This document shows, in pieces, positions 1-13,472 of a stretch of 14,225 nt of DNA. The stretch comes from a virus (taxonomy: Duplodnaviria > Heunggongvirae > Uroviricota > Caudoviricetes), in the IMG/VR virus record IMGVR_UViG_2778261499_000007. The stretch is one strand, 5' to 3'. Made by a program: the position numbers and the translations under genes. The notes under the pieces are model-generated. The model saw only the letters and a list, made by a program, of their open reading frames with translations, did no database searches and was not told the DNA's origin. The stretch's first letter is position 1; each line of letters opens with the position of its first letter.

Positions 1-77
1 CCCCTCAGAGTGGATAGCTGCCAGTGTGGCGTAATTCAGGCCGCTATAGTGCTTTCCGTCATCCCAGCCAACCGCTA
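1..77. repeat. Terminal direct repeat, left copy (identical to 14149-14225)
   Basis: Base-by-base comparison: position 1 aligns with 14149 and position 77 with 14225; position 78 onward is unique. Confidence 0.9.
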
Positions 78-156
78 CACCTTCCATCTGTGAGAGCTCT
101 TTGTGCAGCTTATCCATCATGCGCTTGTCTATGGTGCAATGGACTTTCGGACTCAT
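1..156 (-). CDS. Hypothetical protein, N-terminal part (MSPKVHCTIDKRMMDKLHKELSQMEGVAVGWDDGKHYSGLNYATLAAIHSEG...); continues at 14148->13846 if the unit is circular
   Basis: ATG at 156-154 overlaps the TGA stop of the upstream gene (ATGA, 153-156), suggesting translational coupling. The frame stays open to position 1, and the residues encoded by 1-77 are the same as those encoded by 14149-14225. Confidence 0.5.
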   Translation of the reverse strand, partial: MSPKVHCTIDKRMMDKLHKELSQMEGVAVGWDDGKHYSGLNYATLAAIHSEG

Positions 157-956
157 TTGTTGATCTCCGTGATGTCATCGAGCAACATGTTGGCCTTATC
201 GATCATCGTTTCGTGGAACTCATTCGACACAACAGACTTATCACCTGCGGCAATCTTTCCAGCAGCCTCTCCCTGTGCATATTCCCCGCGATGCTTAGCC
301 CTGGTGGATTTCGTAGCAGCGTTGCCAGCGTTGCTACCCTCTTTAGCACTGTTAACAGCACCCTTTTGCTGTGTTTTGTTCACCTTCTTACTGTTAGTGA
401 AAACTCCGGCATTTTCGACCATCTTCACCTTGAAGGTGCGGAATTCTTCAAAAGTGCAATCAATAGTGATGCAGTCGCCAGAGGAAGAGCTACGCTTAAC
501 TTCACATTTCGTCATGATGAAGTTCTCAAGAAGTCCGGCATCTTCACTAACCAGGCTAACCAGCTGGCGCTTGTCTCTCATTTCCATAAGTGCCTGAACA
601 GCGGCAGCAGGGCGCATAGATTCACGGGGATTATCTGGATCAGTGTTCCGGTCGATGTAGTTCTCTTTCCGGATGATATGAGGGGAAGAGGTGATAATAC
701 CCGTAAAGCTGACAGATTTATCTTTAATGACGGCATGGTCTGACATGGTGGTGCCATCCTCGACCGCATAGCTCGATTTCTCGACAGGGAACGAATAGCT
801 GACATCAGAGATTGAGTCAAAGAAGATAGCCACGTTATCGGTATAGTTGAAGCCATCCATTATATTTTTGTTTTGTGAATATCCCCCACACATAACAGTG
901 AATGCAGGAGATCTCGACTCAGCTTGTTTTGCAGCTGTCAGAGCATCACTAGCCAT
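153..956 (-). CDS. Hypothetical protein, about 267 aa, Lys/Ala/Gly/Ser/Asn-rich C-terminal half; possibly virion-associated (function unknown)
   Basis: ORF-track ORF 153..1010 begins at a TTG; an internal ATG at 956-954 is preceded by GGAGG with about 10-nt spacing, so 956 is the likelier start. Protein-like composition; same strand as the capsid genes. Confidence 0.5.
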   Translation of the reverse strand: MASDALTAAKQAESRSPAFTVMCGGYSQNKNIMDGFNYTDNVAIFFDSISDVSYSFPVEKSSYAVEDGTTMSDHAVIKDKSVSFTGIITSSPHIIRKENYIDRNTDPDNPRESMRPAAAVQALMEMRDKRQLVSLVSEDAGLLENFIMTKCEVKRSSSSGDCITIDCTFEEFRTFKVKMVENAGVFTNSKKVNKTQQKGAVNSAKEGSNAGNAATKSTRAKHRGEYAQGEAAGKIAAGDKSVVSNEFHETMIDKANMLLDDITEINK

Positions 957-1150
957 ATTAAACATGCCTCCAAATTGGTCCACTTCATGGATTTGGCTAA
1001 ACTCGTGCAAGTAGCACTCATCCCGAGGGTGTTAAAGCCAAACCTGCAAAAGATGCAGGCAAAATAGAACTTATCGTTGCCCTGCTTAAAATCTGCAGAA
1101 AATACAGGGCAGTTATTCGTTAGAATCGCTTATAGCTCTTCCCGAGAGCG

Positions 1151-1402
1151 TTATTTTGCAAAACGATTATGGGCATTCAGGGCTTTTTTGCGGTCCTGGG
1201 CTTGTTTGCGTGCAATAAAATGTTCGAAAGTCTCGGCCCAGGTGCATTTATTATATTCACGGTATTTATGCATAGCCTGGCGGCTAACGTCATAGCAGGC
1301 GGCAAATGTGGAGATACGCAGGAATTCCGGCAGATCCTCGTCATCGATATGGATAATATCAAAAGGCACGTCATCACGGTCGCCGTATAAAACAATTTTC
1401 AT
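1151..1402 (-). CDS. Small DNA-binding protein (helix-turn-helix-like segment ISTFAACYDVSRQAMHKY), about 83 aa
   Basis: ORF-track ORF 1151..1411 begins at GTG; the ATG at 1402-1400 is preceded by GAGGTG with 6-nt spacing. The overlapping plus-strand ORFs look like shadows. Confidence 0.4.
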   Translation of the reverse strand: MKIVLYGDRDDVPFDIIHIDDEDLPEFLRISTFAACYDVSRQAMHKYREYNKCTWAETFEHFIARKQAQDRKKALNAHNRFAK

Positions 1403-1436
1403 AAAAGACACCTCAAAAACTTAAGACGGGGATTAT

Positions 1437-1476
1437 GAGTCCTTCCAGGACCTTAGCTAAAGCTAAGCCCTTTGGG
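1437..1476. repeat. Left arm of a 40-bp inverted repeat (partner 4297-4336); itself contains the palindrome CTTAGCT..AGCTAAG
   Basis: The reverse complement of 1437-1476 matches 4297-4336 at about 36 of 40 positions by eye. Confidence 0.7.
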
Positions 1477-1478
1477 TC

Positions 1479-1487
1479 TGTGGATAA
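1479..1487. promoter_or_regulatory. Perfect DnaA-box 9-mer (TGTGGATAA, reverse complement TTATCCACA)
   Basis: Exact match to the TTATCCACA consensus; a second perfect copy lies at 3256-3264. Significance uncertain for an isolated 9-mer. Confidence 0.25.
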
Positions 1488-1537
1488 TAAAAAAGGGAAG
1501 AGGGAAAGACCTATCCCCGATCTCTCACCTCTTCCCT
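1487..1537 (-). terminator. Putative intrinsic terminator downstream of the major capsid gene
   Basis: On the minus strand, GGGAAGAGG/CCTCTTCCC stem halves (1495-1503 and 1528-1536) are followed by a T-run (complement of the A-run at 1488-1494), directly after the capsid stop at 1544-1546. Confidence 0.45.
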
Positions 1538-1543
1538 TTGCTT

Positions 1544-2578
1544 TTATTTAGCCTTGGCAGCGGCGGCGGTGTTTTTAACACTCACTTTAACCACAACTTC
1601 AGGCATCATGTTCATGAAAGCATAAGAGGATTCAACGAAGATTTCGCGTTTGCCTCTGGACTCTTCCATATACATGAAAGCTTCACGTGCAGCGCCGTTT
1701 GCCAGCTTCAGGTTGCGAGCGCAAGGGCCGAAAAATTGAGTATAAACGCCCACCATATCGCCTAACGCATGCGGCTGGAACTGTGGGACTAGATAAGCAG
1801 TATTCTCTGGCAGACTATCCATTTGCACCACACGCAGGGCTAAGCCCGGAATGCGGAAGGTCGGGAAGCCCGGCAGAATATCCTCAGGGAACATCAGACC
1901 TTTATCGGTAATATTCTGATTGCCGAACAACAGCACTTTACGGAGCAGTTCATCAGTCTGAATTGCAGCAAAGAGCTCAGCACGGCAGAACAGGGTGAAA
2001 CCACGCAGAGCGCGAACGACACCACGCTGTTTAACCTTGCTCAGTGCAACCAGGTCCTGCAGCTGTTTAAGGATATCTTGAGCTAGATCCACTTCTGAAG
2101 TGGTTTGCTGTGCGCCCAGCAGTTCGCACACATTCAGTTCTTTACCCTTGGTGAGGATAATTTTGTTCTCAAAGAGAGCAAGCTGGCGTGCTTCTTCATG
2201 GGTCTGGCGTAAGCCTTCGCCCAGTTGAATAACACGACGAGCGGTTACAGACTCTAAATTCTCTTCGGAATCTTTGCCAGGAACGCGGATACCCTGCCAG
2301 TCAGAAGGATAAATAGCACTTGATGCGGCAGTGAACGCCATATCACCCGTGCCCGTTTCACGCTCATCTGCGGTAATGGTCGCCATCTGTTCACCGTAGC
2401 GCGGATACTGACCGAAAGCGGTTTGTTTCACCTGCCGAACTTTGTCATATTCAAATTTGAAGGTATTGCACAGAGCAGTAGTGTTGAAGATATCCATTGC
2501 TGAAATAATCTGATTATCCAGCGGGATGTCTTTAATCAGACCACACAGATCGCGAACTTCGAATTCTTTCTTAGCCAT
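1544..2578 (-). CDS. Major capsid protein, lambda gpE-like family (HK97-fold), about 344 aa
   Basis: Size and position match lambda E (341 aa), immediately downstream of a 111-aa D-like gene. C-terminal segment KREIFVESSYAFMNMMPEVVVKVSV resembles the lambda gpE C-terminus as recalled. ATG at 2578 is preceded by AGGAGG with 6-nt spacing; the track start at 2584 is a TTG. Confidence 0.65.
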   Translation of the reverse strand: MAKKEFEVRDLCGLIKDIPLDNQIISAMDIFNTTALCNTFKFEYDKVRQVKQTAFGQYPRYGEQMATITADERETGTGDMAFTAASSAIYPSDWQGIRVPGKDSEENLESVTARRVIQLGEGLRQTHEEARQLALFENKIILTKGKELNVCELLGAQQTTSEVDLAQDILKQLQDLVALSKVKQRGVVRALRGFTLFCRAELFAAIQTDELLRKVLLFGNQNITDKGLMFPEDILPGFPTFRIPGLALRVVQMDSLPENTAYLVPQFQPHALGDMVGVYTQFFGPCARNLKLANGAAREAFMYMEESRGKREIFVESSYAFMNMMPEVVVKVSVKNTAAAAKAK

Positions 2579-2589
2579 TTCCAACCTCC

Positions 2590-2925
2590 TTATTGTGCAA
2601 CACGCAAATCGCCATTGCTGGCAGCAATAACAGCGGCTAAGCCGTCTTTATCCACGTAGGCCGGATTGATATAACAGCCTTTGTTGGCAACAACGATAAA
2701 AGCATCACCAACCTCAGCACGTTCTACAACCAGCAGCGGAGTTTTATCGGTGTGCGTTTCTTTAACGAAGGTCTCAACCTCGCCAGCCTCAGTCACCACA
2801 ACAACAGTGCCAGCCGGAATCTCAGCTTTAACTTTGTTTTTAATTTCAACGTCGCGAATACTAAATTGCTCATCTGCGGCGTATGAAATGATGTGTCCGC
2901 GTGTGCGGATAGTCATATCTCTCAT
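2590..2925 (-). CDS. Head decoration protein (lambda gpD-like / DUF2190-like), 111 aa
   Basis: 111 aa, beta-rich with Val/Ala/Gly runs, directly upstream of the E-like capsid gene (stop at 2590-2592, capsid RBS 6 nt later). AGGTGA RBS before the ATG at 2925. Confidence 0.55.
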   Translation of the reverse strand: MRDMTIRTRGHIISYAADEQFSIRDVEIKNKVKAEIPAGTVVVVTEAGEVETFVKETHTDKTPLLVVERAEVGDAFIVVANKGCYINPAYVDKDGLAAVIAASNGDLRVAQ

Positions 2926-3255
2926 TTGATCACCTGCGATTTAAATTAACTCCCCTCAAAGAGTTCCGGTATAACCTCTCAAACCGCGACAGGCTCGGGC
3001 CGAAAAGTTATGCCGGAAATCTAAAGGGGGATTGATATAAGGAGAGGGAGATAGCCCCGCACCGTAGCCAAGCGGGGGCTATTCCACATGGGGAAACCGA
3101 CAACAGTCGGATGATAGTTCACAGTATGGGTTACGGTTACTAGAGAGCACTATCACGAAAGGCACTCCCCCGAATCAGTTCAGGCTGCGGTCACATCAGC
3201 GGGGAAATACCTTTCGGGATAGCTACCCACACAGAAAACCCGCAAAAGAAAACTG

Positions 3256-3264
3256 TGTGGATAA
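3256..3264. promoter_or_regulatory. Perfect DnaA-box 9-mer (TGTGGATAA)
   Basis: Exact consensus match within the 870-bp ORF-free leader upstream of the capsid operon. Confidence 0.25.
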
Positions 3265-3408
3265 CTAGCCCAATAGGAGAATTAATCGACCACTCAACGA
3301 TGATCAGGGTAGTGTTATTTATAGGGCGGCACCGCTACCTGGTCGCCTTTACTTTGGAGGAAAATATGGCAAATCAAGATCTTCTCAAATGATATTGATT
3401 CCATACTA

Positions 3409-3428
3409 TACTGTATATTATATCAGTA
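3409..3428. promoter_or_regulatory. LexA/SOS-box-like site (taCTGTatattataTCAGta)
   Basis: CTGT-N8-TCAG with an AT-only spacer; matches the E. coli SOS-box consensus CTGT-(AT)4-ACAG except the first base of the right half-site. Confidence 0.35.
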
Positions 3429-3775
3429 TTTACTCACATTGTCAACACCTTGATTATATAAATTCTAATAATTAGCGTAGTAACGGTATTTTCAGACCTC
3501 TATCAATCCCATCAATACGTCACCCCCACCCTTTAGATGCATACATCCGACCTACTTTGTAGGCTTGGCGTACTGCCAAGGTCGCAGCTATGCGACTCCT
3601 ATCTATCACCACTTTATAAAGCTTGATAGATATCTTTTGATCAATATCAATGTTTTCCGGGTATTTACCCGGCTATAGTTCGAATCAAGGAAGGGGAGCA
3701 TTGATAGAGACACCCAAAGGGGTGACTGAAAGTCACCTGGCATAGCCAGTGAAAGCACCCAACCGAACAAACAAA

Positions 3776-3790
3776 TCAACTTCTCGCAAA
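3776..3790 (+). promoter_or_regulatory. Conserved 15-nt motif TCAACTTCTCGCAAA, copy 1, immediately upstream of the RBS of the 3802 peptide
   Basis: Identical 15-mer at 4367-4381 and a near-identical copy (TCAACCTCTCGCGAG) at 13473-13487. Copies 1 and 2 sit at the same distance from an SD and ATG. Confidence 0.5.
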
Positions 3791-3801
3791 AGGTGATAGT
3801 T

Positions 3802-3924
3802 ATGGGTATCAAGAACAGTGCCAGCGCATGGCAAAAGGCCAGGTTTCATCACCCACACATTGTTAAGGCAATTGAGGTGGTTGGAGTTTTAGCCCTGATG
3901 TTAGCTCTGTGTGTGGAGGTGTGA
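3802..3924 (+). CDS. Small peptide, 40 aa, with hydrophobic C-terminal segment (MGIKNSASAWQKARFHHPHIVKAIEVVGVLALMLALCVEV)
   Basis: Below the ORF-track size cutoff; translated by hand. AGGTGA RBS with 5-nt spacing; predicted C-terminal transmembrane segment. Confidence 0.3.
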   Translation: MGIKNSASAWQKARFHHPHIVKAIEVVGVLALMLALCVEV

Positions 3925-3925
3925 G

Positions 3926-4006
3926 ATGGGCAAAGGAGGCAAAGCATTTTTAATAGGTCTGGCTATCCTGGATGTTCTACTAATCATGATTAAGCGGAGT
4001 TTATGA
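3926..4006 (+). CDS. Small hydrophobic peptide, 26 aa (MGKGGKAFLIGLAILDVLLIMIKRSL)
   Basis: Translated by hand. GGAGG at 3915-3919 with 6-nt spacing; ATG begins 1 nt after the preceding TGA; single predicted transmembrane helix. Confidence 0.25.
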   Translation: MGKGGKAFLIGLAILDVLLIMIKRSL

Positions 4007-4025
4007 ACAGCATTGAGAGGAGTTT

Positions 4026-4286
4026 ATGACGGGGGCTAAAGATATCAGGAGACTGAGGGAAGAGCTGATAGCTGAAATTAAAGCTAAGGCAAAGCAAATG
4101 GAGATAGCCGCACAAATGGATGTAGCGGAACAGATGTACAAGATGGTTGAGGAGGGAACGCCACGACAGGTTATCGCTAAAACCTTCGGTGTGGGGATCG
4201 CCACCGTGCACAGAAGGCTGAAAGCCTATGCCGACTACCACAATATCGAGAGAAAGGAGGATGGGAGATTTAAGAAGAATAAATAG
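4026..4286 (+). CDS. Small HTH DNA-binding protein (coiled-coil N-terminus, C-terminal HTH GTPRQVIAKTFGVGIATVHRRLK), 86 aa
   Basis: ORF track; GAGGAG RBS; clear helix-turn-helix pattern; the overlapping minus-strand ORFs are low-complexity shadows. Confidence 0.55.
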   Translation: MTGAKDIRRLREELIAEIKAKAKQMEIAAQMDVAEQMYKMVEEGTPRQVIAKTFGVGIATVHRRLKAYADYHNIERKEDGRFKKNK

Positions 4287-4296
4287 TAGGAACAGG

Positions 4297-4336
4297 CCCG
4301 AAGGGCTTAGCTTTAGCTAAGGTCCTATCAGGACTC
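4297..4336. repeat. Right arm of the 40-bp inverted repeat (partner 1437-1476); hairpin-forming
   Basis: CCCGAAGGGCTTAGCTTTAGCTAAGGTCCT... is the reverse complement of 1437-1476 with about 4 mismatches; lies between the HTH gene stop and the next gene. Confidence 0.7.
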
Positions 4337-4366
4337 CCACACAGTCCAACAGGTTATTAACTAAAT

Positions 4367-4381
4367 TCAACTTCTCGCAAA
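4367..4381 (+). promoter_or_regulatory. Conserved 15-nt motif TCAACTTCTCGCAAA, copy 2, immediately upstream of the RBS of the 4393 gene
   Basis: Exact repeat of 3776-3790, at the same spacing to SD and ATG. Confidence 0.5.
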
Positions 4382-4392
4382 GGGGTACCACT

Positions 4393-5103
4393 ATGTTTAA
4401 AGGTCTTGTTGTTACGCTATTGGCTTGCATTGTATTTGGTCCATGGGTGTTAGTAATTGCTTTACCTATATTGCTGATCATGAGCTTAGGGAATGATATT
4501 AAAAAGCTGCATGCACAATATAAGGAGCATCCTGGAGCAGTCATAACAAGTCTGGTTATAGTCGCGGGGCTTATTGGCTGGGTCTACTTCTCTCTTCCCA
4601 CAGGAAATACAACTGCAAATGTAGAAGAGGCGAACGCACAGCATGAAGAAGTGGTTAACGTCGCCGACCTTACATGGGAGGACAGGGTAAAAGCATATAA
4701 ATATATTTATGGTGTGCTAGATTGCGATCTCTCTAAAGATATAGGATGCACAGATAAATACCAGATTCACGCCTGGCTGTGGAATCATGCAGAAAAAGGT
4801 GCTTGCAACCAGATTAAAGTGGCGGTTAACAGTGGGGCACCTACTGGGAAAAATAAAGATGTTCTGACGGTATGGTGCAAGGATGTAAAAGGCAATGATC
4901 GTTGGCTACAGATGCGCCACATGGACGGTGTAAGCATAGAAACTACACGAACGGCTCGATGGTATAACGGTGAACTCGTTCACGAAGCATGGCAGAATAA
5001 CGCCTGGATCACTGAGGGAACACTCCTGAATGTTGATATGGAAGCATTGAAGATGCTTAATGAGATGTACGGTGAAGCCGTAGAAACCTCTCCGATGAAA
5101 TAA
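4393..5103 (+). CDS. Membrane protein, 236 aa: N-terminal transmembrane helices and a Cys-containing C-terminal domain; function unknown
   Basis: ORF track; two long hydrophobic segments in the first 70 aa; several Cys in the C-terminal domain; followed by a strong terminator. Confidence 0.55.
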   Translation: MFKGLVVTLLACIVFGPWVLVIALPILLIMSLGNDIKKLHAQYKEHPGAVITSLVIVAGLIGWVYFSLPTGNTTANVEEANAQHEEVVNVADLTWEDRVKAYKYIYGVLDCDLSKDIGCTDKYQIHAWLWNHAEKGACNQIKVAVNSGAPTGKNKDVLTVWCKDVKGNDRWLQMRHMDGVSIETTRTARWYNGELVHEAWQNNAWITEGTLLNVDMEALKMLNEMYGEAVETSPMK

Positions 5104-5113
5104 CCACACCTAC

Positions 5114-5143
5114 CAGGGGCCATCACGGCCCCTTTTTATTTAT
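5114..5143 (+). terminator. Rho-independent terminator (AGGGGCC-atcac-GGCCCCT followed by TTTTATTTAT)
   Basis: Perfect 7-bp GC-rich stem, 5-nt loop and T-rich tail starting 11 nt after the stop of the 4393..5103 gene. Confidence 0.7.
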
Positions 5144-5200
5144 CCCCTATTTACACTCCTTTCAGTCCTGATCATCACTCCCTACCCCCTGATCAATTAA

Positions 5201-5250
5201 CCCCTATTTAAGGGGTATTTAATGGGTATTTAATGCCTATTTATTGATTT
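5201..5250. repeat. Phased tandem repeats of TATTTAA at about 11-bp period (4 to 5 copies), plus a second CCCCTATTTA copy at 5144-5153
   Basis: cccctatttaa / ggggtatttaat / gggtatttaat / gcctatttatt / gatttaat; periodicity of about one helical turn. Confidence 0.6.
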
Positions 5251-6486
5251 AATCCGTTTTATGCCACAACCGCCCGGTTGACAGAGTAAGAGAGAGGGTG
5301 TAACCCTTTTTCGTAATACTAATAAAATCAATAGCTTAGCTCAATTGGCCTTTTCTCTGTTTTTGTCAAATTTAACATACCCTAAAAAACTGCAAAATCT
5401 GGCTGCAAGATTATCTGCAGCTGGATTTCTTACACCTCAATTTGTGGTATCACCCTGACTAGTTTGTGCATAAAATGAACAGTTTTTAACATTTCCTCTT
5501 CACCTGGTAACCACACAAAAAGCTAAAAACGAGGCACAGATAATCTTAGAGGCCTGTTTTCTTGTTATCACTCTGGAAACGTCGTAGAAGTGATTTTGAT
5601 GAAAGATGACCTACCCTATTACACCCCCATTTTTTGTTATCACAATTGCATCCTGTGCGGTGTATGGCTGTGTGCTGAAAGCGGTCTTGGGTGTGGGTGT
5701 CAGAAATATCCATTAGCGGTATTAATACCCGTCAGATGTTCGTCTGAGGTGCCAGGCAGGCGCTCCCCCACCTCCCTTTTTTCTTCTAACAATTCTCAAA
5801 TATCACACCACTGCCGACCACGTTACTACTCTGTTAATTCTTAAGCTTTGCTGTATGTTGTGCACATTATTTATTCAGGTGCGTGTACGTAAATTCTGGG
5901 CCTCCTTATCATGATTTTTAAATCAGATTTTGTAGTTCGGTTTCTTAGTGTAGATAAGATCTATTATGTTAAATGCAATTTTCCCAACCCTTCAAATCAA
6001 TGACTTACATGTAAGCATGCACTAACACCCCACACAGCACATTAGACGTATAGATGGCTATATCCCACATTTTTGATTGTTTTGTAGTCATTCCCCTGAT
6101 CATTTAACCAGTATAGTTTGTTCTTTGCAGACCACAAAATCGGAATTTACATCTGATTAACATAATCTGTTAGCATGATCACTATTACCCACACAACAAT
6201 AACCCCATGCAAGACTCTTCAGGCAATTTATCGGCGTGTTGGTGTGAACAGTCTTTCATGTTCTTTATGTTTTCATTGTCCTGTGTGAGGGAAGGATGGA
6301 CTGCCCCAGGGGCCACACTTATGATGCCCGGTCAACATAGCTATTGATAAAATCAACGGGTGTTGATCTGCATATTTCCCACACATGAGAGGAAATCAGA
6401 GCAAAGAGAGAGGAGAGAGGTTTGCTAGTCAAAATAGGTCAATTGACGGCTAATACAGAGTAAAAAATCAGATGCAATCACTCCCC

Positions 6487-6669
6487 ACCTGTTGGGATTT
6501 CCCGCACCTGTATAAGAATACAGTCATACTTTCCCGTTATACGGTCATACACATGATGGAATAACCTGTTGGAATTTCCTACAGGTTTAACCATACACAG
6601 GAGCTAACCTGTTGGAATTTCCTACTACTACCTGTCGGTATTTCCCACAGGTACCTGTTGGAATTTCCC
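6487..6669. repeat. Iteron array (5 copies of ACCTGTTGGAATTTCCY at 6487, 6564, 6607, 6630, 6653), candidate replication origin
   Basis: Near-identical 17-mers; the last three are spaced 23 bp apart; ACCTGT/ACAGGT inverted half-sites; followed by an AT-rich tract (6670-6710) and, 1.3 kb downstream, Rep-like genes. Confidence 0.7.
6508..6523. promoter_or_regulatory. Canonical SOS-box pattern CTGT-N8-ACAG (CTGTATAAGAATACAG) inside the iteron region
   Basis: Exact CTGT and ACAG half-sites with an 8-nt A/T-rich spacer. May partly reflect the iteron ACCTGT/ACAGGT half-sites. Confidence 0.35.
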
Positions 6670-6797
6670 ACACTAATAGATAAAGAGAATAGATCAATAA
6701 AAAGAACTCCCCCTATAATCCCCCAACAAGGGGGGATGGGGAGGGATCAGAGAGTGGGGAAGGTTTTCTAAGGGAAAAGCTTAACCCACAAATGAAA

Positions 6798-6826
6798 GCC
6801 TAAAGAGCATTAGCGACTCTTTAGGC
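6798..6826. other. Perfect 10-bp stem hairpin (GCCTAAAGAG-N9-CTCTTTAGGC), part of a highly structured ORF-free stretch (about 6790-7100)
   Basis: Exact inverted repeat. Nearby are GGTGAC-N21-GTCACC (6840-6872), TTAAGCC-tct-GGCTTAA, GTCCGGA-N20-TCCGGAC and tandem 17-mers at 6826-6843 and 6873-6889. Confidence 0.5.
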
Positions 6827-7231
6827 AATCTGTGTGTGGGGTGACAATGTATTCCATACATGACACGTCACCCAATTGTGTGTGGGGTGCTTACAGCACT
6901 TAAGCCTCTGGCTTAACCCTTCGGGCCTCTGTGTGGGAAGCGTAGTGCGATAGCACGTAGCTTTATAATGTGGAGTCCGGATAAGAGACTTCTGTTTCCA
7001 ATCCGGACCGTTTAAGCGAGGGATTCCGCTCGCCCGTGTATGCACACACGTAATAGGACGCTCAGAAATCGATTTTAAGGCCCAAAACGGGGCCTACAGC
7101 AACCTAAACCATACTCCATAGTGCAATTGCATTGCCTGATGCTTAAATCGCGTTGTAGGGCATCTCATGAGGTTTGAGTTTAACACCCTCCAAAGTTTTA
7201 ACAAAAAGTGCTCTCCCTCCATTGTGGGCCA

Positions 7232-7261
7232 TTGACAATCTTATTGCATAAATGCTATAAG
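7232..7261 (+). promoter_or_regulatory. Sigma70-like promoter (TTGACA-N18-TATAAG)
   Basis: Consensus -35 hexamer with a 5-of-6 match -10 at 18-nt spacing. One of five (A/T)TTGACAAT-type repeats in 7230-7560. Confidence 0.4.
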
Positions 7262-7551
7262 TGATTCTGGTTTTGACACGGTAGGGGCCATTAATAATGT
7301 TTACCCCTTTGCTGTGGACTTGCTTGCACCTATAGCACACCTAAATGATAATAATTCTCATTGACAATTGGTTGACAATATGATAAGATTATAAATAGGG
7401 GGAGAAACAGATCCGGAGGTCAATGTGGAAATTACTGATGCAATAGCGATCATCAACCTGGCTGTACTGTGGTGCGGTGTTGCCTACATAGCCGGAGTAA
7501 CTGCAATCGACAATCTCGAAGAAAAAATGATAGATAAATACAAAAAGATTG

Positions 7552-7580
7552 TTGACAATTTGACGAATGTCTGATAAAAT
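7552..7580 (+). promoter_or_regulatory. Sigma70-like promoter (TTGACA-N17-TAAAAT) about 125 nt upstream of the 7706 gene
   Basis: Consensus -35 and near-consensus -10 at optimal spacing, oriented toward the replication gene block. Confidence 0.45.
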
Positions 7581-7705
7581 ATAAAGCATAGGGTAATTCT
7601 CATCATAGTGAATTTCCTTAAACAAAAATGCGGGGGCTTGTCTTAAGTTCCCGTTTCTTTTTAACCGTATATCGCACAGGCGGTGAGCTGACAGGAGATT
7701 GAATC

Positions 7706-7915
7706 ATGGCTAAAACCGGACCGATAAGCCAGCTGGTAAACTGGACTACTGACGAAATCGTCGAGAACGTGCTTAAAGGTAACTTTCGAAAAACTTCCGT
7801 TTATGCATTTATTCGTAAACACAAAGGGGAATACCCACATATTGAAGCGGCAATAGAAAAACTTAACTTTATCCGCATTGAGCGTGAGCTGGAAAGATAT
7901 AAACATCTACTTTGA
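7706..7915 (+). CDS. Small hypothetical protein, 69 aa (possible regulator)
   Basis: ORF track; AGGAGA RBS with 7-nt spacing; first gene of the plus-strand block that continues into the Rep-like genes. Confidence 0.45.
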   Translation: MAKTGPISQLVNWTTDEIVENVLKGNFRKTSVYAFIRKHKGEYPHIEAAIEKLNFIRIERELERYKHLL

Positions 7916-7939
7916 TAAATAATCTTGGAGGATCATATT

Positions 7940-8326
7940 ATGGCAAATAACGATGAAAATTTTACTCCCTTTTTTAAACGTTTCATCAAATACACTTTTA
8001 AAAATCCGATTGCAAAAACTGCAACCAATAAAGAAAGATTTCACTTAAATGTGTTGGAGGTAACAATTTATGGTGAAATGGTAAGTTATTCTTTTAAGGA
8101 GGGTGAAGAAATAATTATCTCAGAGCTCTCGACGCAGACATTAGCAGACGATTATGATGTTACAGAGAAAACAGTAAGGTCGGCTATCAAAACATTAGAG
8201 GCTGCAGGTCTGATAAACGTTAAACGAGAACAGGGCAAATCGAATATCTACGAATTGCTAATTACCCCTGATCAGCTTGGCAAGATGTGCGATGAGCAGG
8301 GTATTAGAGAATATTTTATATATTAA
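7940..8326 (+). CDS. Rep-like winged-helix protein, short paralog (about 128 aa); replication-initiator-type HTH
   Basis: Segment ISELSTQTLADDYDVTEKTVRSAIKTLEAAGLINVKREQGKSNIYELL fits the winged-helix pattern of phage/plasmid replication initiators. GGAGG RBS before the ATG at 7940 (track start 7925 is a TTG). Paralogous to the next gene. Confidence 0.5.
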   Translation: MANNDENFTPFFKRFIKYTFKNPIAKTATNKERFHLNVLEVTIYGEMVSYSFKEGEEIIISELSTQTLADDYDVTEKTVRSAIKTLEAAGLINVKREQGKSNIYELLITPDQLGKMCDEQGIREYFIY

Positions 8327-8337
8327 TGGGGGGAACT

Positions 8338-9258
8338 ATGGCAGGAAATAAACTGGGGGCACCTTTTACCCCCTCTTTCGATTTCTTTATTCAGTATGAT
8401 TTTGATAAACCAGTAGCAACAACAATTTCTAATAAAAAGACTGGAACAGTTAAAGAGCGCTTCTATTTAACAGACTTTGAAATGTTGATTTATGGAAAAA
8501 TGGTGGGATTTCATTTTAACGGTGAGGGAATTTATATTTCAGAGCAAAAACTGGCAACTCAACTCAGAAAGGATCGCGGGAAAATAGTAAGCGCTATTAA
8601 ATCTCTGGAAAATGCCGGGCTTATTTCTAAAGATAGCCGGAAAGGCATGTCTAATAATTACAAATTGCTGAAAACCCCTGATCAATTGTTGGATATGTGC
8701 ATTGAGAAGGGCGTAAATATTCCAGAAGGCATCTTAGAGACTTTCGGAAAGACTGCCGCTAAAGTAGAACAGCCTCAGGAAGCCCCAAAACAAGCCACAC
8801 AGCAAGCTAAAAAGGCTAAAGTAGTGCAATTGCCTACCCAAGACACTAAAGCGCCTCAAATTAACGCTGTTAGTGACAAGCCACGCCGGGGCCGTCCTGT
8901 GAAAGATGTCACCGATGGAGGCTGGATCGTCCTGGGTGAGAGTGAGGCTAAAGGCATAATGCGATCACTGTGGGAAAGCAAATACAAAGATTTAAACAAA
9001 CGTCGCCCGATCCTTTTGTCAAAGATTCAGGAGGATTTTTACACCGCAGAAGAGGTAAGCCAACATAAAGGGAAAAGAGAGGGTGAAATCTGGAAACCGG
9101 AAGAATACTGGCATTTAACCAGACCTGTGTTTATTTTTGCAAATAAGCTTATTGGGATGGGATTTGAAATATTGTTGGATAAAACCTGCGGAGATTATCC
9201 CGAAATATTGTGGAGAAATGTTAGAAAAAATAAAAAAGGCATTTTAGAGTTTAAATAA
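8338..9258 (+). CDS. Rep-like replication initiator, long paralog (about 306 aa) with a C-terminal extension
   Basis: N-terminal 120 aa parallels the preceding gene (MA.N...FTP.F...; ...SAIKSLENAGLISKDSRKGMSNNYKLL). The previous stop overlaps an upstream ATG at 8326 (TAATG); 8338 is preceded by a G-rich SD. Iterons lie upstream. Confidence 0.5.
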   Translation: MAGNKLGAPFTPSFDFFIQYDFDKPVATTISNKKTGTVKERFYLTDFEMLIYGKMVGFHFNGEGIYISEQKLATQLRKDRGKIVSAIKSLENAGLISKDSRKGMSNNYKLLKTPDQLLDMCIEKGVNIPEGILETFGKTAAKVEQPQEAPKQATQQAKKAKVVQLPTQDTKAPQINAVSDKPRRGRPVKDVTDGGWIVLGESEAKGIMRSLWESKYKDLNKRRPILLSKIQEDFYTAEEVSQHKGKREGEIWKPEEYWHLTRPVFIFANKLIGMGFEILLDKTCGDYPEILWRNVRKNKKGILEFK

Positions 9259-9275
9259 AAACACTGATAATCTTA

Positions 9276-9289
9276 TTTTTTTTTTTTTT
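9276..9289. repeat. Homopolymeric T tract (14 T)
   Basis: Seen directly in the sequence between the Rep gene stop and the 9307 ORF. Confidence 0.8.
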
Positions 9290-9306
9290 GTTTAAGGAAA
9301 TTTAAA

Positions 9307-9453
9307 ATGTATGGCGATTTTGATTATTACCTGGAAAAGGAAAAATATTTTGAAGATGAACTATCACAACATTTTTCATATTGGGAAGAATATTGTGGTT
9401 GGTTAGCTGAAGATCCAGCAGATGAAGAAAATGATTCTGACATCCCTTATTAA
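9307..9453 (+). CDS. Small, strongly acidic, aromatic-rich protein, 48 aa (MYGDFDYYLEKEKYFEDELSQHFSYWEEYCGWLAEDPADEENDSDIPY)
   Basis: Below the ORF-track cutoff; translated by hand. AAGGAAA RBS about 7 nt upstream; composition dominated by Asp/Glu/Tyr/Trp. Confidence 0.35.
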   Translation: MYGDFDYYLEKEKYFEDELSQHFSYWEEYCGWLAEDPADEENDSDIPY

Positions 9454-9551
9454 TTAATATCCCCTGTTATCCCCAAACAAACTAAATAAATAAACTAAGC
9501 ACTAGAACTAGATTGATTGCCCTGATCTTTTAAACGTTCGGAGAATTAATC

Positions 9552-10040
9552 ATGTTCAAATCTGATCTTTCTGATTCCCAATTTGAAAAACTGGTAGCAC
9601 TGCAGAAATATCTCCCCAGTGATGATCAACCAACACGACAGGCTAAACACTTATTAGTCGAGGGCTTTACCCCTGAATTCGTGGCGGAATATACAGGCGT
9701 TAAACTTGAGAAAGTCCAAAAACTATATAATGAGTCCTGGAATCCACGGTGTCGAGTTCCCCTCAGTGTCTACAACGAAATAGATAGAGATAGAAATGTC
9801 TTCGAAGATCGCCGCCGCAAATCTCTTTTAATGTGGAATTGTGGGATGAATATTGAAGAGATAGCAAAAGAATTAAAAGTAACCTGCTTTCATATCTGGG
9901 GCTTGTTGAGTGAAATCCTACCACGTAAGGAGCTTAATCAACGTTTGCCTAAGCCCGGTAGTCGTGCTTATCGCGAATTTATATTCATCTACCGCCGCCA
10001 TAGCAATAAAGTCCGGAAAGCAATGGCCCAGAAAGCCTAA
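9552..10040 (+). CDS. Hypothetical protein, 162 aa, with two HTH-like segments (possible DNA-binding or regulatory protein)
   Basis: ORF track; GGAGA RBS; basic C-terminus; HTH-like stretches FTPEFVAEYTGVKLEKVQKLY and MNIEEIAKELKVTCFHIWGLL. Confidence 0.45.
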   Translation: MFKSDLSDSQFEKLVALQKYLPSDDQPTRQAKHLLVEGFTPEFVAEYTGVKLEKVQKLYNESWNPRCRVPLSVYNEIDRDRNVFEDRRRKSLLMWNCGMNIEEIAKELKVTCFHIWGLLSEILPRKELNQRLPKPGSRAYREFIFIYRRHSNKVRKAMAQKA

Positions 10041-10113
10041 GTTTTATCTCTTCGATTTATTTATTTTCGACTCACTTTAACCCCTTCCGGGGCTCTAATT
10101 TAAGGAATTCCAA

Positions 10114-10557
10114 ATGTCTCAAATCGCTAAATTACTATCCCAGGTTATCAAAGCTTTCGACGCTGAAGATTCAAAAGTTCGCCAGGATCTTTTAGATGGC
10201 AAGTTTACCAACACCCTGGCATTTACCCGTGACAAAGAGCACTTCTTAAAACACAGACACCACGCTTTTGCTGAATGCAAGTCCGCTAATGGTGATGTTT
10301 TCTATGTCGATTTGGTGGTTATGGCATGTAGATTGTGGATGATTCAGGACCTTATGCGCCAACACGGTGATGATCCTCTTATCAGCATGTGGAACAGCGC
10401 CCAGGATGGCTTTGTGATTGCTGCCTTATCCAAATCAATGATTGAGGCAGAAGGGGCAAGCCTTCAGAACATGGCAGATCTCTTTGAAATAAGCGTAGGA
10501 ATGATGCAGACCATGCTCCAAGCTGTCAAACCTCTCAAACTGGTTAATCTTGATTAA
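10114..10557 (+). CDS. Hypothetical protein, 147 aa
   Basis: ORF track; AAGGAA RBS with 7-nt spacing; no recognisable motif. Confidence 0.45.
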   Translation: MSQIAKLLSQVIKAFDAEDSKVRQDLLDGKFTNTLAFTRDKEHFLKHRHHAFAECKSANGDVFYVDLVVMACRLWMIQDLMRQHGDDPLISMWNSAQDGFVIAALSKSMIEAEGASLQNMADLFEISVGMMQTMLQAVKPLKLVNLD

Positions 10558-10618
10558 GCTATTGATAAATAAGCACTCCCCATTTTTTTGGGGGGTGCAT
10601 CAATGAGAGGATATGCCT

Positions 10619-11002
10619 ATGAATATTGAAGAAATGATAGTTGAATTCGAAGATGGTGATTTCCTGGAAGATGGGGAGTTTAAATACTCCCGTTTTAAAC
10701 AGGCGTTATTTAGCAGTGAGGATAAACCACACGTTAGTGATCTTAACGACGATGATTTATGTCGTTGGGTATGCACCCGCTTATATGAGGATGGAAAATA
10801 TACAGGCCAAAACTTTCCAAATCTCTATTTCAAAGCACAAACATTTGAGGAAGGGCAAAGAGTGAAAAACCTGGTAGATAAAATGCTTTCAGCCGGATAT
10901 TTGCATAAAGAATTATTAAATCCTAAAGCTGAAAGCAAGCGCCATTATATTTTTGTGTGGTCTGTGGGGGATAAGTGCCCACTGAAGCGTAAAGGCAAAT
11001 GA
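10619..11002 (+). CDS. Acidic hypothetical protein, about 127 aa; possible tail assembly chaperone by position upstream of the tape-measure gene
   Basis: GAGAGGA RBS is correctly spaced for the ATG at 10619 (track start 10613 is too close to the SD). Acidic composition and tight packing against the next two genes. Confidence 0.4.
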   Translation: MNIEEMIVEFEDGDFLEDGEFKYSRFKQALFSSEDKPHVSDLNDDDLCRWVCTRLYEDGKYTGQNFPNLYFKAQTFEEGQRVKNLVDKMLSAGYLHKELLNPKAESKRHYIFVWSVGDKCPLKRKGK

Positions 11003-11003
11003 T

Positions 11004-11189
11004 ATGAATACCTACGAAAAGATTTATCAAAAATTAAAAAGTGATAACAATGCTCCCGTCATCAAGGGCGGGGCTTCTTCCTCTGGTGACCTCTCAATCG
11101 AAGAGCTTGCGGAGAAATATAATATTGATAAAGAGGCCCTGAAAAGGGCTATTTCATTATCAAAATCTTTAAGACAAGGCGAGGTATAA
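11004..11189 (+). CDS. Small hypothetical protein, 61 aa, immediately upstream of the tape-measure gene
   Basis: ORF track; ATG 1 nt after the previous stop; its stop lies 1 nt before the tape-measure ATG. Confidence 0.35.
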   Translation: MNTYEKIYQKLKSDNNAPVIKGGASSSGDLSIEELAEKYNIDKEALKRAISLSKSLRQGEV

Positions 11190-11190
11190 A

Positions 11191-13293: not shown

Positions 13294-13395
13294 TGTCCAC
13301 TCTGTGGATTTGAGTTCTACTCAAACCTGCATAGCAGGCACTGATATTGTGATCAAAATCAATAAGTTAGCCTGACCGGACAAACTCCAGGCAAG

Positions 13396-13426: not shown

Positions 13427-13472
13427 CTTCTCCGGTATCCTTTTGATGCGGGGCAAAACCTGCTAACAAAAA

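What the first reader, a model, noticed from the sequence alone, without database searches (positions are those of the whole stretch)
1437..4336. 40-bp inverted repeats bracketing the capsid module, its leader and the small-peptide/HTH operon
The two arms (1437-1476 and 4297-4336, about 36 of 40 matching) are each internally palindromic and flank about 2.8 kb containing the capsid genes in one orientation and the peptide/HTH operon in the other. This could be an invertible switch, a pair of recombinase sites, or paired hairpins. Each arm sits at the 3' side of a transcription unit.
Basis: seen in the sequence. Interest (0 to 1): 0.5.

Follow-up and report, generated by a model that had tools for sequence, protein, structure and literature searches.

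The report
Two copies of a mobile triple-hairpin repeat
The two "inverted repeat arms" are real, but they are independently inserted copies of a roughly 50-base, REP-like palindromic mini-element that comes and goes in a family of phage-related E. coli plasmids and in rV5-like phages, so they are not the ends of an invertible switch.

Summary
The inverted repeat is confirmed: 1437-1481 versus 4292-4336, 40 of 45 matching, well above shuffled controls. It is not a functional pair.

- **Each arm is an insertion.** The arms are 49-52 nt insertions with clean empty sites in near-identical relatives.
- **The arms occur independently.** Among 24 relatives every combination is found (both, either one, neither). 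The same module also sits at a third site, in frame inside a gene.
- **No inversion and no recombinase.** All 24 relatives are collinear with the window, and no plasmid protein has a recombinase or transposase domain.
- **The module is three abutting perfect hairpins.** About ten diverged variants keep this layout through compensatory Watson-Crick changes with no G·U pairs (10 of 12 pairs in helices 2 and 3; 0 of 500 shuffles reach the observed values). That points to DNA-level hairpins.
- **It looks REP-like.** Read on the other strand, it carries a GT[A/G]G tag at a hairpin foot, as REP elements do. No RayT homologue is present on the plasmids or the phage, copy number is low, and the stems are perfect.
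- **rV5-like phages share it.** They carry the module as a presence/absence polymorphism too, and the plasmid's structural genes are related to theirs.

Verdict: a new small palindromic insertion module. How it moves is unresolved.

The parts
1430..1481 (-). Arm 1: type A (V1) triple-hairpin module. It is a 52-nt insertion (core 1437-1481) between the capsid terminator T-tract and the RBS of the next gene (p83, ATG at 1402). The junction repeat is ATCC/GGAT.
   Evidence: filled in the window; empty in L001-L006; CM 67.2 bits
4292..4340 (+). Arm 2: type A (V1) triple-hairpin module. It is a 49-nt insertion 5 nt after the HTH ORF stop codon and 52 nt before the ATG at 4393. The junction repeat is ACAG. 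Its 3' end CCCAC reads as a GTGG tag on the other strand.
   Evidence: filled in the window and L001; empty in L002-L006; 67.2 bits
6882..6930 (-). Diverged module (variant V3) with the same three-hairpin layout but compensatory stems (TTAAGCC/GGCTTAA; GTGCT/AGCAC). It sits in an array of palindromic cassettes.
   Evidence: (60.5 bits)
3708..3753 (+). Type B module (CCC-AAA-GGG / GTGAC-TGAAA-GTCAC / CTGGC-ATA-GCCAG), upstream of the small-peptide/HTH operon. Related copies lie in frame inside CDSs of L006, L001, L004 and L010, and a decayed copy lies in a phage CDS.
   Evidence: (12.9 bits, weak)
6830..6990 (-). Cassette array: short palindromic units delimited by CCCACACA(G). The content and order of units differ between plasmids.
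   Evidence: (CCCACAC 13 times versus about 1 expected)
1484..1547 (-). Intrinsic terminator of the capsid operon, immediately upstream of arm 1 in the transcription sense. This is the real terminator; the arm is not.
   Evidence: (-33 kcal/mol, z = -5.18)
1544..2925 (-). Context between the arms: major capsid protein (1544-2584) and a 111-aa protein (2590-2925).
   Evidence: (phrog_29 major head protein)
4026..4286 (+). Context between the arms: an 86-aa protein consisting only of an HTH_7 domain. It has no recombinase catalytic domain.

Best explanation
**What is shown.** The two arms are independently acquired copies of a roughly 45-nt core (49-52 nt as inserted) triple-hairpin palindromic module. 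The module belongs to a small family of short interspersed palindromic repeats. The family lives in a group of Vequintavirus-related, roughly 13-14 kb E. coli plasmids and in rV5-like phages.
- The module is gained and lost at many permissive sites: intergenic DNA just past stop codons or terminators, 5' leaders, a noncoding cassette array, and in-frame positions inside genes.
- The two copies in this window happen to lie in opposite orientation on either side of the capsid/HTH region. That creates an inverted repeat with no function as a pair.

**What is inferred.**
- The selected feature is hairpin formation at the DNA level (single-stranded DNA or cruciform), because stems evolve only through Watson-Crick to Watson-Crick double changes.
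- Spread is copy-and-paste next to short junction repeats that usually contain ACAG (CTGT on the other strand).
- Two mechanisms fit. One is a hairpin-recognising single-strand nuclease/transposase supplied in trans (REP/RAYT-like, from host or phage). The other is microhomology-guided template switching or recombination during phage or plasmid replication.
- Loss would occur by slipped-strand deletion between the junction repeats.
- Any effect on neighbouring genes, such as hairpins added to mRNA 3' ends or 17 extra residues in a protein, is secondary and probably near neutral.
For: **Insertion polymorphism with clean empty sites**
- Site 2 (arm 2) is filled in the window and L001 and empty in L002-L006.
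- Site 1 (arm 1) is filled in the window and empty in L001-L006.
- Site 3 is filled in L006, L009 and L026 and empty elsewhere. There it adds 51 nt in frame, or 17 aa.
- Site 4 is filled only in L017.
- The phage site is filled in rV5_ev147, APECc02 and EduardKellenberger. It is empty in the V5 type phage and A51.2, and naswa and V18 carry another filler there.

**Independence of the arms.** All four combinations occur among 24 relatives. L003 and L005 have no copy at all.

**No inversion.** Every relative is collinear with the window.

**Structure under selection**
- In 15 distinct sequences, helices 2 and 3 are 100% paired and 10 of their 12 pairs show double compensatory changes.
- There are no one-sided or G·U changes, and 0 of 500 shuffles reach the observed values.
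- Among the near-identical V1 copies, 0 of 30 stem positions vary against 7 of 15 non-stem positions (Fisher p = 1.4e-4).
- DNA-parameter folds give the three-hairpin structure with z = -2 to -5.4.

**Orientation is not tied to transcription.** Site 3, V6 and V7 are reversed.

**Junction repeats.** They are ACAG (site 2), ACAGGC (site 4), CTACAGG (phage) and CCCACACAG (array), but ATCC (site 1) and 1 nt (site 3).

**REP-like tag.** C[C/T]AC lies 0-2 nt from the foot of hairpin 3 in variants V2-V9 and in V1 at site 2. The features of GTAG-tagged REPs are taken from PMC3733652 and PMC3333891.

**Link between plasmid and phage.** The Dit-like protein is 50% identical to a Vequintavirus protein, another protein 44%, and the capsid and TMP about 25%.
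Against: - No mobilising enzyme was identified. No plasmid protein has a transposase, HUH or recombinase domain. No RayT homologue is found in the plasmids or in the one rV5-like genome searched.
- Junction repeats vary from 1 to 10 nt, which does not fit a single transposase-type target duplication.
- Both flank haplotypes at site 2 occur in filled and empty states. Part of the polymorphism could therefore be recurrent precise deletion or inter-plasmid recombination, not new insertion.
- Perfect palindromes can also be maintained without selection, through quasi-palindrome correction by template switching. The covariation therefore does not strictly prove a function for the hairpins.
- Three of the window's four copies are in sense orientation at or near the 3' ends of transcripts, so an RNA-level role is not excluded.
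- Only two relatives carry both arms (the window and L031). The absence of inversion therefore rests on assemblies of few informative plasmids.
Confidence: 0.72

Rival explanations
1. Invertible switch or paired recombinase sites. A site-specific recombinase flips the 2.8-kb capsid/HTH segment between the arms and so swaps which downstream genes each promoter reads into.
For: A 45-nt inverted repeat does flank the segment. The ORF next to arm 2 has a resolvase-type HTH_7 domain and a weak match to the C-terminus of DNA invertases. The longest perfect stretch shared by the arms is 26 bp, so rare RecA-dependent inversion is physically possible.
Against: - The HTH protein has 86 aa and lacks any catalytic domain, and no other recombinase is present.
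- The arms are independent insertions, present in all four combinations.
- All 24 relatives are collinear with the window.
- The same module occurs as single copies at unrelated sites and in phages.
Confidence: 0.03
2. RNA-level regulatory cassette. The hairpins act in the transcript as a 3' stabiliser, a processing site or an intercistronic attenuator, as REP sequences can, and are kept by selection on the plasmid or phage.
For: - Arm 1, arm 2 and the array copy lie in sense orientation at or just past the 3' ends of transcription units.
- REPs are mostly downstream of coding regions, and many are thought to act as RNA (PMC3733652).
- The structure is conserved by covariation.
Against: - There is not one G·U pair or one-sided change in 225 pair cells.
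- RNA folds of the arms are unremarkable (z = -0.65 to -1.4), and there is no U-tract.
- Orientation is reversed at site 3, V6 and V7.
- Arm 1 lies downstream of an efficient-looking terminator, so it is probably little transcribed.
- The modules are dispensable: L003 and L005 have none.
Confidence: 0.15
3. Not mobile. The modules are old resident sequences, and the polymorphism is only recurrent precise deletion by replication slippage across hairpins between short direct repeats, plus recombination among plasmids.
For: - All indels are flanked by short direct repeats.
- The same filled and empty states occur on different flank haplotypes.
- Deletion of palindromes between direct repeats is an established mutational route (general knowledge).
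Against: - V1 copies at three unrelated sites are nearly identical, with 0 of 30 stem differences, while the plasmids differ by 5-8% and other variants have different stems. At least two duplicative gains are therefore required.
- Site 3 and site 4 are filled in only 3 and 1-2 of 24 relatives.
- Cassettes change neighbours within the array.
Confidence: 0.1
4. Cis-acting signal borrowed from the helper phage, for example a hairpin-type priming or replication signal, a packaging signal, or an operator bound by a phage or plasmid HTH protein. The plasmid would use it to exploit rV5-like phages.
For: - The module is shared with rV5-like phages. There it lies in a 2.5-kb unannotated zone between convergent gene blocks.
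- The plasmid's structural genes are Vequintavirus-like.
- One plasmid copy lies next to the iterons.
- Watson-Crick-only palindromes fit DNA-level recognition.
Against: - The module is dispensable in both partners. Some plasmids have none, and the V5 type phage lacks it at the shared site.
- Position and orientation vary, and some copies lie inside coding regions.
- Stem sequences differ between copies in one plasmid, which argues against one sequence-specific binding protein.
Confidence: 0.08

Closest known systems
GTAG-tagged REP elements and BIME clusters, mobilised by RAYT / TnpA-REP (PMC3333891, PMC3733652, PMC3116915)
   Same: - Short palindromic stem-loops.
- An unpaired terminal GT[A/G]G tag at the hairpin foot, sometimes with two extra 'GW' bases. 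Here the tag is GTGG or GTAG, with GA where a 2-nt spacer occurs.
- Mostly just downstream of genes, with some intragenic copies.
- Clustered in mosaic arrays.
- Sub-families differ by complementary stem changes.
- Presence varies between strains.
- A CT dinucleotide sits next to the tag. The phage boundaries GACC|TACA fit the published type II cleavage consensus.
   Different: - Three abutting perfect hairpins of 3, 5-7 and 5 bp, where E. coli REPs have a single 30-40 nt imperfect palindrome.
- The stem mismatch that E. coli TnpA-REP needs in vitro is absent.
- No G·T pairs.
- Only 0-4 copies per plasmid and 2-3 per phage, with none found on E. coli chromosomes.
- Array units lie head-to-tail, whereas BIMEs pair REP with inverted REP.
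- No RAYT gene on the plasmids or the phage.
PeSL cassettes of T4-type phages (PMC2839356, PMC4122927)
   Same: Small repeated stem-loop cassettes in hyperplastic regions of a virulent myovirus. They are associated with insertion, deletion and replacement differences between close relatives and with reshuffling of neighbouring modules.
   Different: PeSLs combine a strong sigma-70 promoter with a terminator stem-loop, and they act as homology for recombination between genes. The present modules have no promoter-like site and no U-tract, and it is the modules themselves that are inserted.
MITEs and palindromic elements that insert in frame into genes (Rickettsia RPE from general knowledge; Coxiella MITEs, PMC5896051; reviews PMC3184786, PMC10969869)
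   Same: Non-autonomous and structure-rich. They are tolerated in frame within protein-coding genes (17-aa and 16-aa additions here) as well as in intergenic DNA.
   Different: No terminal inverted repeats, no constant target-site duplication, and much smaller (about 50 nt compared with about 100-400 nt).
Invertible DNA switches (Hin/Gin/Cin, fim type; general knowledge)
   Same: A segment that carries promoters is flanked by short inverted repeats.
   Different: No recombinase is present, the arms are not co-inherited, and no inverted isoform is seen.
IS200/IS605-type single-strand transposition and derived palindrome-associated elements (PMC6006769)
   Same: Hairpin-defined ends, DNA-level (single-strand) recognition, insertion next to a short specific sequence without a true target duplication. 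This is compatible with the recurrent ACAG/CTGT junctions.
   Different: No TnpA is present. Two of the six sites lack the ACAG target. The element is only a hairpin cluster with no cargo.

Membership tests
Invertible DNA switch | Inverted repeats flank the segment | tested here: met
   45 nt, 89% complementary
Invertible DNA switch | A cognate site-specific recombinase is encoded in or beside the element | tested here: not met
   Only an 86-aa protein that is an HTH_7 domain alone was found. No resolvase, invertase or integrase catalytic domain appears in any plasmid protein.
Invertible DNA switch | Both orientations occur, and the two arms are conserved together | tested here: not met
   all 24 relatives are collinear; the arms occur in all four combinations. 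Caveat: only the window and L031 carry both arms, and no read-level data were available.
GTAG-tagged REP (RAYT-mobilised) | A short stem-loop (stem 5-13 bp, loop 2-20 nt) with an unpaired terminal GT[A/G]G tag | tested here: met
   C[C/T]AC lies 0-2 nt from the hairpin 3 foot (5-bp stem, 3-nt loop) in V2-V9 and in V1 at site 2. The tag is missing from V1 at sites 1 and 3 and from type B. The criteria come from PMC3733652.
GTAG-tagged REP (RAYT-mobilised) | An imperfect palindrome, with the stem mismatch required by E. coli TnpA-REP; G·T pairs are common | tested here: not met
   helices 2 and 3 are 100% Watson-Crick paired with no G·U. The requirement is taken from PMC3333891.
GTAG-tagged REP (RAYT-mobilised) | Many copies dispersed over the host chromosome | tested here: not met
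   V1-like sequence is found on 3 plasmid records and 0 chromosomes among 5,426 E. coli genomes; 0-4 copies per plasmid and 2-3 per phage. Diverged variants were not searched chromosome-wide.
GTAG-tagged REP (RAYT-mobilised) | An associated RAYT (Y1 transposase) gene, forming a REPtron | tested here: not met
   tblastn of E. coli RayT against all plasmid loci and one rV5-like genome returned only noise (E = 6.5). Action of the host's chromosomal RayT in trans could not be tested.
GTAG-tagged REP (RAYT-mobilised) | Clusters (BIMEs) of REP and inverted REP with linkers | tested here: inconclusive
   Mosaic arrays of palindromic units exist and vary between plasmids, but the units are mostly head-to-tail and separated by CCCACACAG.
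MITE | Terminal inverted repeats and a constant-length target-site duplication | tested here: not met
   The ends ACAG... and ...CCCAC are not inverted repeats of each other (sequence). Junction repeats are 1, 4, 4, 6 and 7-10 nt.
Intrinsic terminator | A G+C-rich hairpin followed by a U-tract | tested here: not met
   One search lists no terminator-like site at either arm. The real terminator is 1484-1547.
PeSL regulatory cassette | A sigma-70-type promoter joined to a terminator stem-loop | tested here: not met
   One search finds no promoter-like site within 1430-1481 or 4292-4340. The definition comes from PMC2839356.
IS200/IS605-type single-strand element | Insertion 3' of a fixed tetra- or pentanucleotide without duplication; TnpA-dependent | tested here: inconclusive
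   ACAG/CTGT lies at the junction in 4 of 6 sites but not at sites 1 and 3. No TnpA was found.

The most novel reading that the evidence does not exclude
The triple-hairpin modules are substrates of a single-strand, hairpin-recognising cut-and-paste activity. That activity could be host RayT acting on a non-canonical GTGG/GTAG-tagged perfect hairpin, or an unrecognised enzyme of rV5-like phages. It would cleave at C|TGT and move the modules between a virulent phage and its plasmid-borne relative or satellite. This would be the first REP-like mobile repeat family resident in a phage/satellite pair, and a molecular trace of DNA exchange between them.
Probability: 0.2. Interest if true: 0.7.

Novelty: new variant of a known kind. 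Interest (0 to 1): 0.45.

Why it matters
The result removes a tempting but wrong reading, a capsid-module inversion switch.

It replaces that reading with a well-defined, testable object. The object is a roughly 50-nt repeat whose three hairpins are maintained only through Watson-Crick compensatory changes, which inserts both between genes and in frame within them, and which is shared between rV5-like virulent phages and a common family of small E. coli plasmids with Vequintavirus-like capsid and tail genes.

Three things would follow if the module proves to be mobilised by a REP/RAYT-like or new single-strand activity:
- REP-type biology would extend from chromosomes to phages and their satellites.
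- The module would serve as a marker for phage-plasmid exchange.
- A compact substrate would be available for studying hairpin-directed DNA insertion.

If it spreads only through microhomology and slippage, it is an ordinary though neat example of palindrome-driven indel mutagenesis.

Tried and rejected
- **Rfam scan of the whole window**. It gave only two sub-threshold chance hits, and neither is at the arms.
- **RNA folding of the arms**. The z-scores were weak, so a strong RNA element is not indicated.
- **Promoter and terminator scan**. The arms are neither.
- **Public-collection pattern scans.**
  - Viral contigs with two structure-aware patterns gave one chance hit lacking the central hairpin, then zero hits.
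  - Genome contigs with the 20-nt core gave two hits, in Thermococcus and Psychrobacillus, which I take to be chance matches and did not inspect.
  - The module therefore appears confined to this plasmid family and rV5-like phages. These scans need exact pattern matches, so diverged copies would be missed.
- **Megablast of the whole plasmid against phages** found no match. The relationship is visible only at the protein level.
- **The search for related loci in viral contigs** found no relatives.
- **Literature searches** for this plasmid family, for an rV5 satellite and for rV5 intergenic repeats found nothing relevant.
- **The CCCACAC delimiter as a phage promoter motif.** It is only about 2.5-fold enriched in the phage, so I did not pursue it.
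- **G4-type priming signal, N4-type hairpin promoter, integron attC and lambda nut/put pairs** were considered from memory as analogies. I set them aside because the modules are dispensable, vary in orientation and sometimes lie inside genes.
- **A defence-system role for neighbouring genes.** The PADLOC scan gave only weak HTH-level hits.
- **One call failed** on a wrong reading frame and was repeated without that ORF.

Full report
**1. The observation**

The window is a circular contig. Bases 1-77 repeat at 14149-14225, giving a 14,148-bp circle.

The reported inverted repeat is real:
- It is the longest in the window: 1437-1481 versus 4292-4336, 45 nt, 89% complementary.
- Its ungapped score is 27, against 12-20 in 30 shuffles.

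Each arm is a run of three abutting small hairpins: CCC-nnn-GGG, CTTAGC(T)-TT(TA)-(A)GCTAAG and GTCCT-nnn-AGGAC. All five differences between the arms lie in loops or outside the stems.

**2. Local context**

- *Arm 1.* On the minus strand a consensus promoter-like site (3445-3417, 12/12 matches) faces a 111-aa gene and the major capsid gene (1544-2584; phrog_29). A strong intrinsic terminator follows at 1484-1547 (-33 kcal/mol, z = -5.2). Arm 1 begins about 4 nt after its T-tract and ends 35 nt before the ATG of the next gene.
- *Arm 2.* On the plus strand arm 2 begins 5 nt after the stop codon of an 86-aa ORF consisting only of an HTH_7 domain (4026-4286). It ends 52 nt before the next ATG (4393).

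Read in the direction of their own transcription units, both arms have the same orientation. Neither arm has a U-tract or a promoter-like site. As RNA they fold no better than shuffled sequence (z = -0.65 to -1.4).

**3. The arms are separate insertions**

The window belongs to a family of roughly 13-14 kb E. coli plasmids that are 92-95% identical to it. I collected 24 relatives from complete genomes, PLSDB, metagenomes and assemblies.

Alignments of the two junctions show clean empty sites:
- Site 2...AATAGTRKGA|ACAGTCC... is empty in L002-L006. In the window and L001 it carries a 49-nt insertion.
- Site 1...AAGACGG|GGATAAT... is empty in L001-L006. In the window it carries a 52-nt insertion.

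Across the 24 relatives every combination occurs:
- both arms: the window and L031
- site 1 only: L010, L023, L027, L030
- site 2 only: L001, L025, L029
- neither: L003, L004, L005, L019, L032 and others

A nearly identical copy sits at a third, unrelated site in L006, L009 and L026. It is a 51-nt in-frame insertion that adds HGSPSRTLAKAKPVGSM near the C-terminus of a 129-aa protein.

All 24 relatives are collinear with the window for probes inside and outside the arms. No plasmid protein has a recombinase, integrase, transposase or HUH domain. The invertible-switch and paired-recombinase-site readings are therefore not supported.

One caveat applies. Only two plasmids carry both arms, and I had no read-level data.

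**4. A family of triple-hairpin modules**

Searching with a covariance model built from nine copies found further copies:
- In the window: a diverged copy at 6882-6930 (minus strand, 60.5 bits) and a weak 'type B' copy at 3708-3753 (plus strand, 12.9 bits).
- In relatives: about ten sequence variants at eight or more sites.
- In L003 and L005: no copy at all, so the module is dispensable.

The variants keep the same geometry with different stem sequences. The geometry is a 3-bp stem with a 3-nt loop, then a 5-7-bp stem with a 2-5-nt loop, then a 5-bp stem with a 3-nt loop. One variant class replaces the first hairpin with a 5-bp one in a shifted register.

Pair counts on the seed alignment:
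- 97.8% of cells are paired.
- 8 of 15 pairs show double changes.

Pair counts on 15 distinct model-aligned sequences:
- Helices 2 and 3 are 100% paired.
- 10 of their 12 pairs show compensatory double changes.
- No pair shows a one-sided or G·U change.
- 0 of 500 shuffles reach the observed paired fraction, number of compensatory pairs or covariation score.
- Slid controls collapse to 19-57% paired.
- This alignment was fitted to the model, so these counts lean towards the structure.

Among the near-identical V1 copies, 0 of 30 stem positions vary against 7 of 15 non-stem positions (Fisher p = 1.4e-4). With DNA parameters the modules fold into the three hairpins with z = -2 to -5.4.

I infer that pairing is needed on both strands or at the DNA level, that is, in single-stranded DNA hairpins or a cruciform. 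Two facts point this way: G·U pairs are completely absent, and orientation relative to genes is not fixed (site 3, V6 and V7 are reversed). An alternative that needs no selection is quasi-palindrome correction by template switching.

**5. How the module moves or is lost**

In the noncoding region next to the iterons (6485-6671) the modules lie in an array of short palindromic units. The units are delimited by CCCACACA(G).
- CCCACAC occurs 13 times in the window against about 1 expected.
- Unit content and order differ between plasmids. The same unit (V2) has different neighbours in different plasmids.

Junction repeats at the insertion sites are:
- ACAG at site 2
- ACAGGC at site 4, in the capsid leader of L017
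- CTACAGG at the phage site
- ATCC at site 1
- 1 nt at site 3

Other hairpin-bearing indels in the family also have 4-5-nt junction repeats. One is a 24-nt indel at the 3' end of the capsid gene. Another is a 33-nt hairpin nested inside the arm-1 copy of L010.

Two mechanisms fit these data:
- short-homology-guided copying in and slippage out
- a hairpin-specific single-strand enzyme that cuts next to CTGT

I cannot distinguish them with the available data.

**6. Link to rV5-like phages**

- The arm sequence matches (81-83% over about 41 nt) unannotated DNA in 27 phage records. They are rV5-like E. coli phages (Vequintavirinae), plus 135-141 kb records deposited as 'Campylobacter phage'.
- In phage EduardKellenberger the copy lies in a 2.5-kb gene-free zone between convergent gene blocks. 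The model finds only 2-3 copies in the 131-kb genome.
- The module is an indel there too. The V5 type phage and A51.2 have the empty site ...GACCTGAC|CTACAGGAG.... rV5_ev147, APECc02 and EduardKellenberger carry the module. naswa and V18 carry a different filler.
- The plasmid is related to these phages at the protein level. Its Dit-like protein is 50% identical to the phage 'tail tube initiator', another protein is 44% identical, and the capsid and tape measure are about 24-26% identical. rV5-like capsids are the best phage matches of the plasmid capsid.
- V1-like sequence was found only on plasmids of this family among 5,426 E. coli genomes. Pattern scans of viral and genome collections gave nothing convincing.

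**7. Comparison with known elements**

Read on the complementary strand the module is 5'-GT[A/G]G, then 0-2 nt (GA where the spacer is 2 nt), then hairpin 3, hairpin 2, hairpin 1, then CTGT-3'.

This resembles the GTAG-tagged REP superfamily (PMC3733652), which has:
- stems of 5-13 bp
- tags that can degenerate to GTRG or GTGG
- 'GW' extra bases between tag and stem in some families
- frequent clusters
- intragenic copies

E. coli TnpA-REP acts only on single strands. It cleaves at C|T, including a type II site [G/T][G/T/A]CC|TAC[A/C/G] (PMC3333891). Both boundaries of the phage copy read GACC|TACA.

Membership nevertheless fails on several defining points:
- The stems are perfect, whereas E. 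coli TnpA-REP needs a stem mismatch.
- There are no G·T pairs.
- Copy number is very low, and no chromosomal copies were found.
- Array units are mostly head-to-tail.
- RayT has no homologue in the plasmids or the phage.

Other comparisons also fail on defining features:
- PeSL cassettes of T4-type phages (PMC2839356) are a functional analogy for reshuffling, but they contain promoters and terminators.
- MITEs need terminal inverted repeats and a constant target duplication, and both are absent here.

I therefore file the module as a new variant of the broad class of short interspersed palindromic repeats. It is REP-like in architecture, and its mechanism of movement is unresolved.

**8. Verdict**

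The arms are two independent copies of a dispensable, DNA-level triple-hairpin insertion module shared with rV5-like phages.
- Confidence that the arms are independent copies of a polymorphic repeat is about 0.9.
- Confidence in the whole statement, including DNA-level selection and copy-paste spread, is about 0.7.
- A REP/RAYT-like enzymatic mechanism has a probability of about 0.2.

Noticed in passing
window 1-14225 (whole): The contig is circular (1-77 = 14149-14225; 14,148 bp). It belongs to a common family of roughly 13-14 kb, non-mobilizable E. coli plasmids: the exact HTH protein occurs in 655 collection blocks, mostly on 10-20 kb contigs. The plasmids carry capsid, tape-measure and Dit-like genes. 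The Dit-like protein is 50% identical to the Vequintavirus 'tail tube initiator', p91 is 44% identical to bas59_0011, and the capsid and TMP are about 25% identical to their phage counterparts. This looks like a plasmid-borne satellite or relative of rV5-like phages. Three literature searches found no paper on it.
   Followed up: partly
window 6485-6671: Five 21-23-bp iterons (consensus TAACCTGTTGGAATTTCCTAC), probably the replication origin. They lie next to the palindromic cassette array and upstream of Rep-like winged-helix genes (7925-9258).
   Followed up: no
window 3226, 3852, 4336, 6029, 6188, 6378, 6667 (+); 4189, 5691, 6834, 6880, 6931 (-): CCCACAC occurs 13 times against about 1 expected, mostly in noncoding DNA, where it delimits the palindromic cassettes. 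It is only about 2.5-fold enriched in the rV5-like phage. Its role is unknown.
   Followed up: partly
window 3406-3447 and 7550-7591: A 42-nt inverted similarity (79%) covers the two best sigma-70-like promoters of the window: 3445-3417 on the minus strand (12/12 matches) and 7552-7580 on the plus strand (11/12). This suggests co-regulated promoters that share an extended operator-like sequence.
   Followed up: no
window 3773-3793, 4364-4384, 13470-13490: A conserved 21-nt motif, AAWTCAACTTCTCGCAAARGG, lies just upstream of the Shine-Dalgarno sequence and ATG of at least two genes. It may be a shared translation or transcription leader.
   Followed up: no
window 2926-3412 (-): The roughly 485-nt 5' leader of the capsid operon is strongly structured as RNA (MFE -172.6 kcal/mol, z = -4.5). 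It includes a long hairpin built from CCCACACAG / CTGTGTGGG (about 3226-3262). In L017 a module (V7) is inserted into this leader.
   Followed up: partly
window 3701-3745 (+); L006 2758-2803; L001 10460-10696; L008 1525-1574: The type B module is translated in one frame wherever it lies in a CDS (EDTPEGVT[V/I]GHL...). The phage CDS copy is decayed. In the window it overlaps a possible 14-codon ORF (TTG at 3701, preceded by a GGAAGGGGAG Shine-Dalgarno-like sequence) upstream of the peptide/HTH operon.
   Followed up: partly
L023 1-5200 and 18700-20261; L024 1-5100 and 18600-20261: In two assemblies the plasmid backbone is fused to other DNA: the microcin B17-type mcb operon, beta-lactamase, aminoglycoside phosphotransferases and a Tn3-type transposase. 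The tape-measure gene is truncated.
   Followed up: no
NZ_CP043822.1 (L010 is one unit): A 39.6-kb 'plasmid' record holds three places that match the 14-kb window. This is probably a trimer or an assembly concatemer of the element.
   Followed up: no
window about 1540-1560 versus L002-L006 (alignment A2); L010 9970-10049: There are other small hairpin-bearing indels with 4-5-nt junction repeats. One is a 24-nt CCTTC-GAA-GAAGG hairpin at the 3' end of the capsid gene (ATTT repeat). Another is a 33-nt hairpin nested inside the arm-1 module of L010 (TTAGC repeat).
   Followed up: partly
phage records MG0656xx ('Campylobacter phage', 135-141 kb): Records deposited as Campylobacter jejuni phages match the rV5-like E. 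coli phages, both at the module locus (up to 98.5% identity over 481 nt) and, by tblastn with the plasmid capsid, at the capsid gene. The host assignment looks doubtful.
   Followed up: no
MZ501061.1 89968-92520 (L015 39968-42520); L007 2048-3116: rV5-like phages have a roughly 2.5-kb gene-free zone between convergent gene blocks. It holds the module, a second two-hairpin module (L007 2044-2089), alternative cassettes and a 24-nt patch that is 96% identical to window 5781-5804. It is a hyperplastic noncoding region of unknown function.
   Followed up: partly
window 8234-8301 and 8644-8711: A 68-nt direct repeat (71%) links the adjacent 133-aa and 310-aa winged-helix genes, which indicates a partial duplication of the DNA-binding domain.
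   Followed up: no
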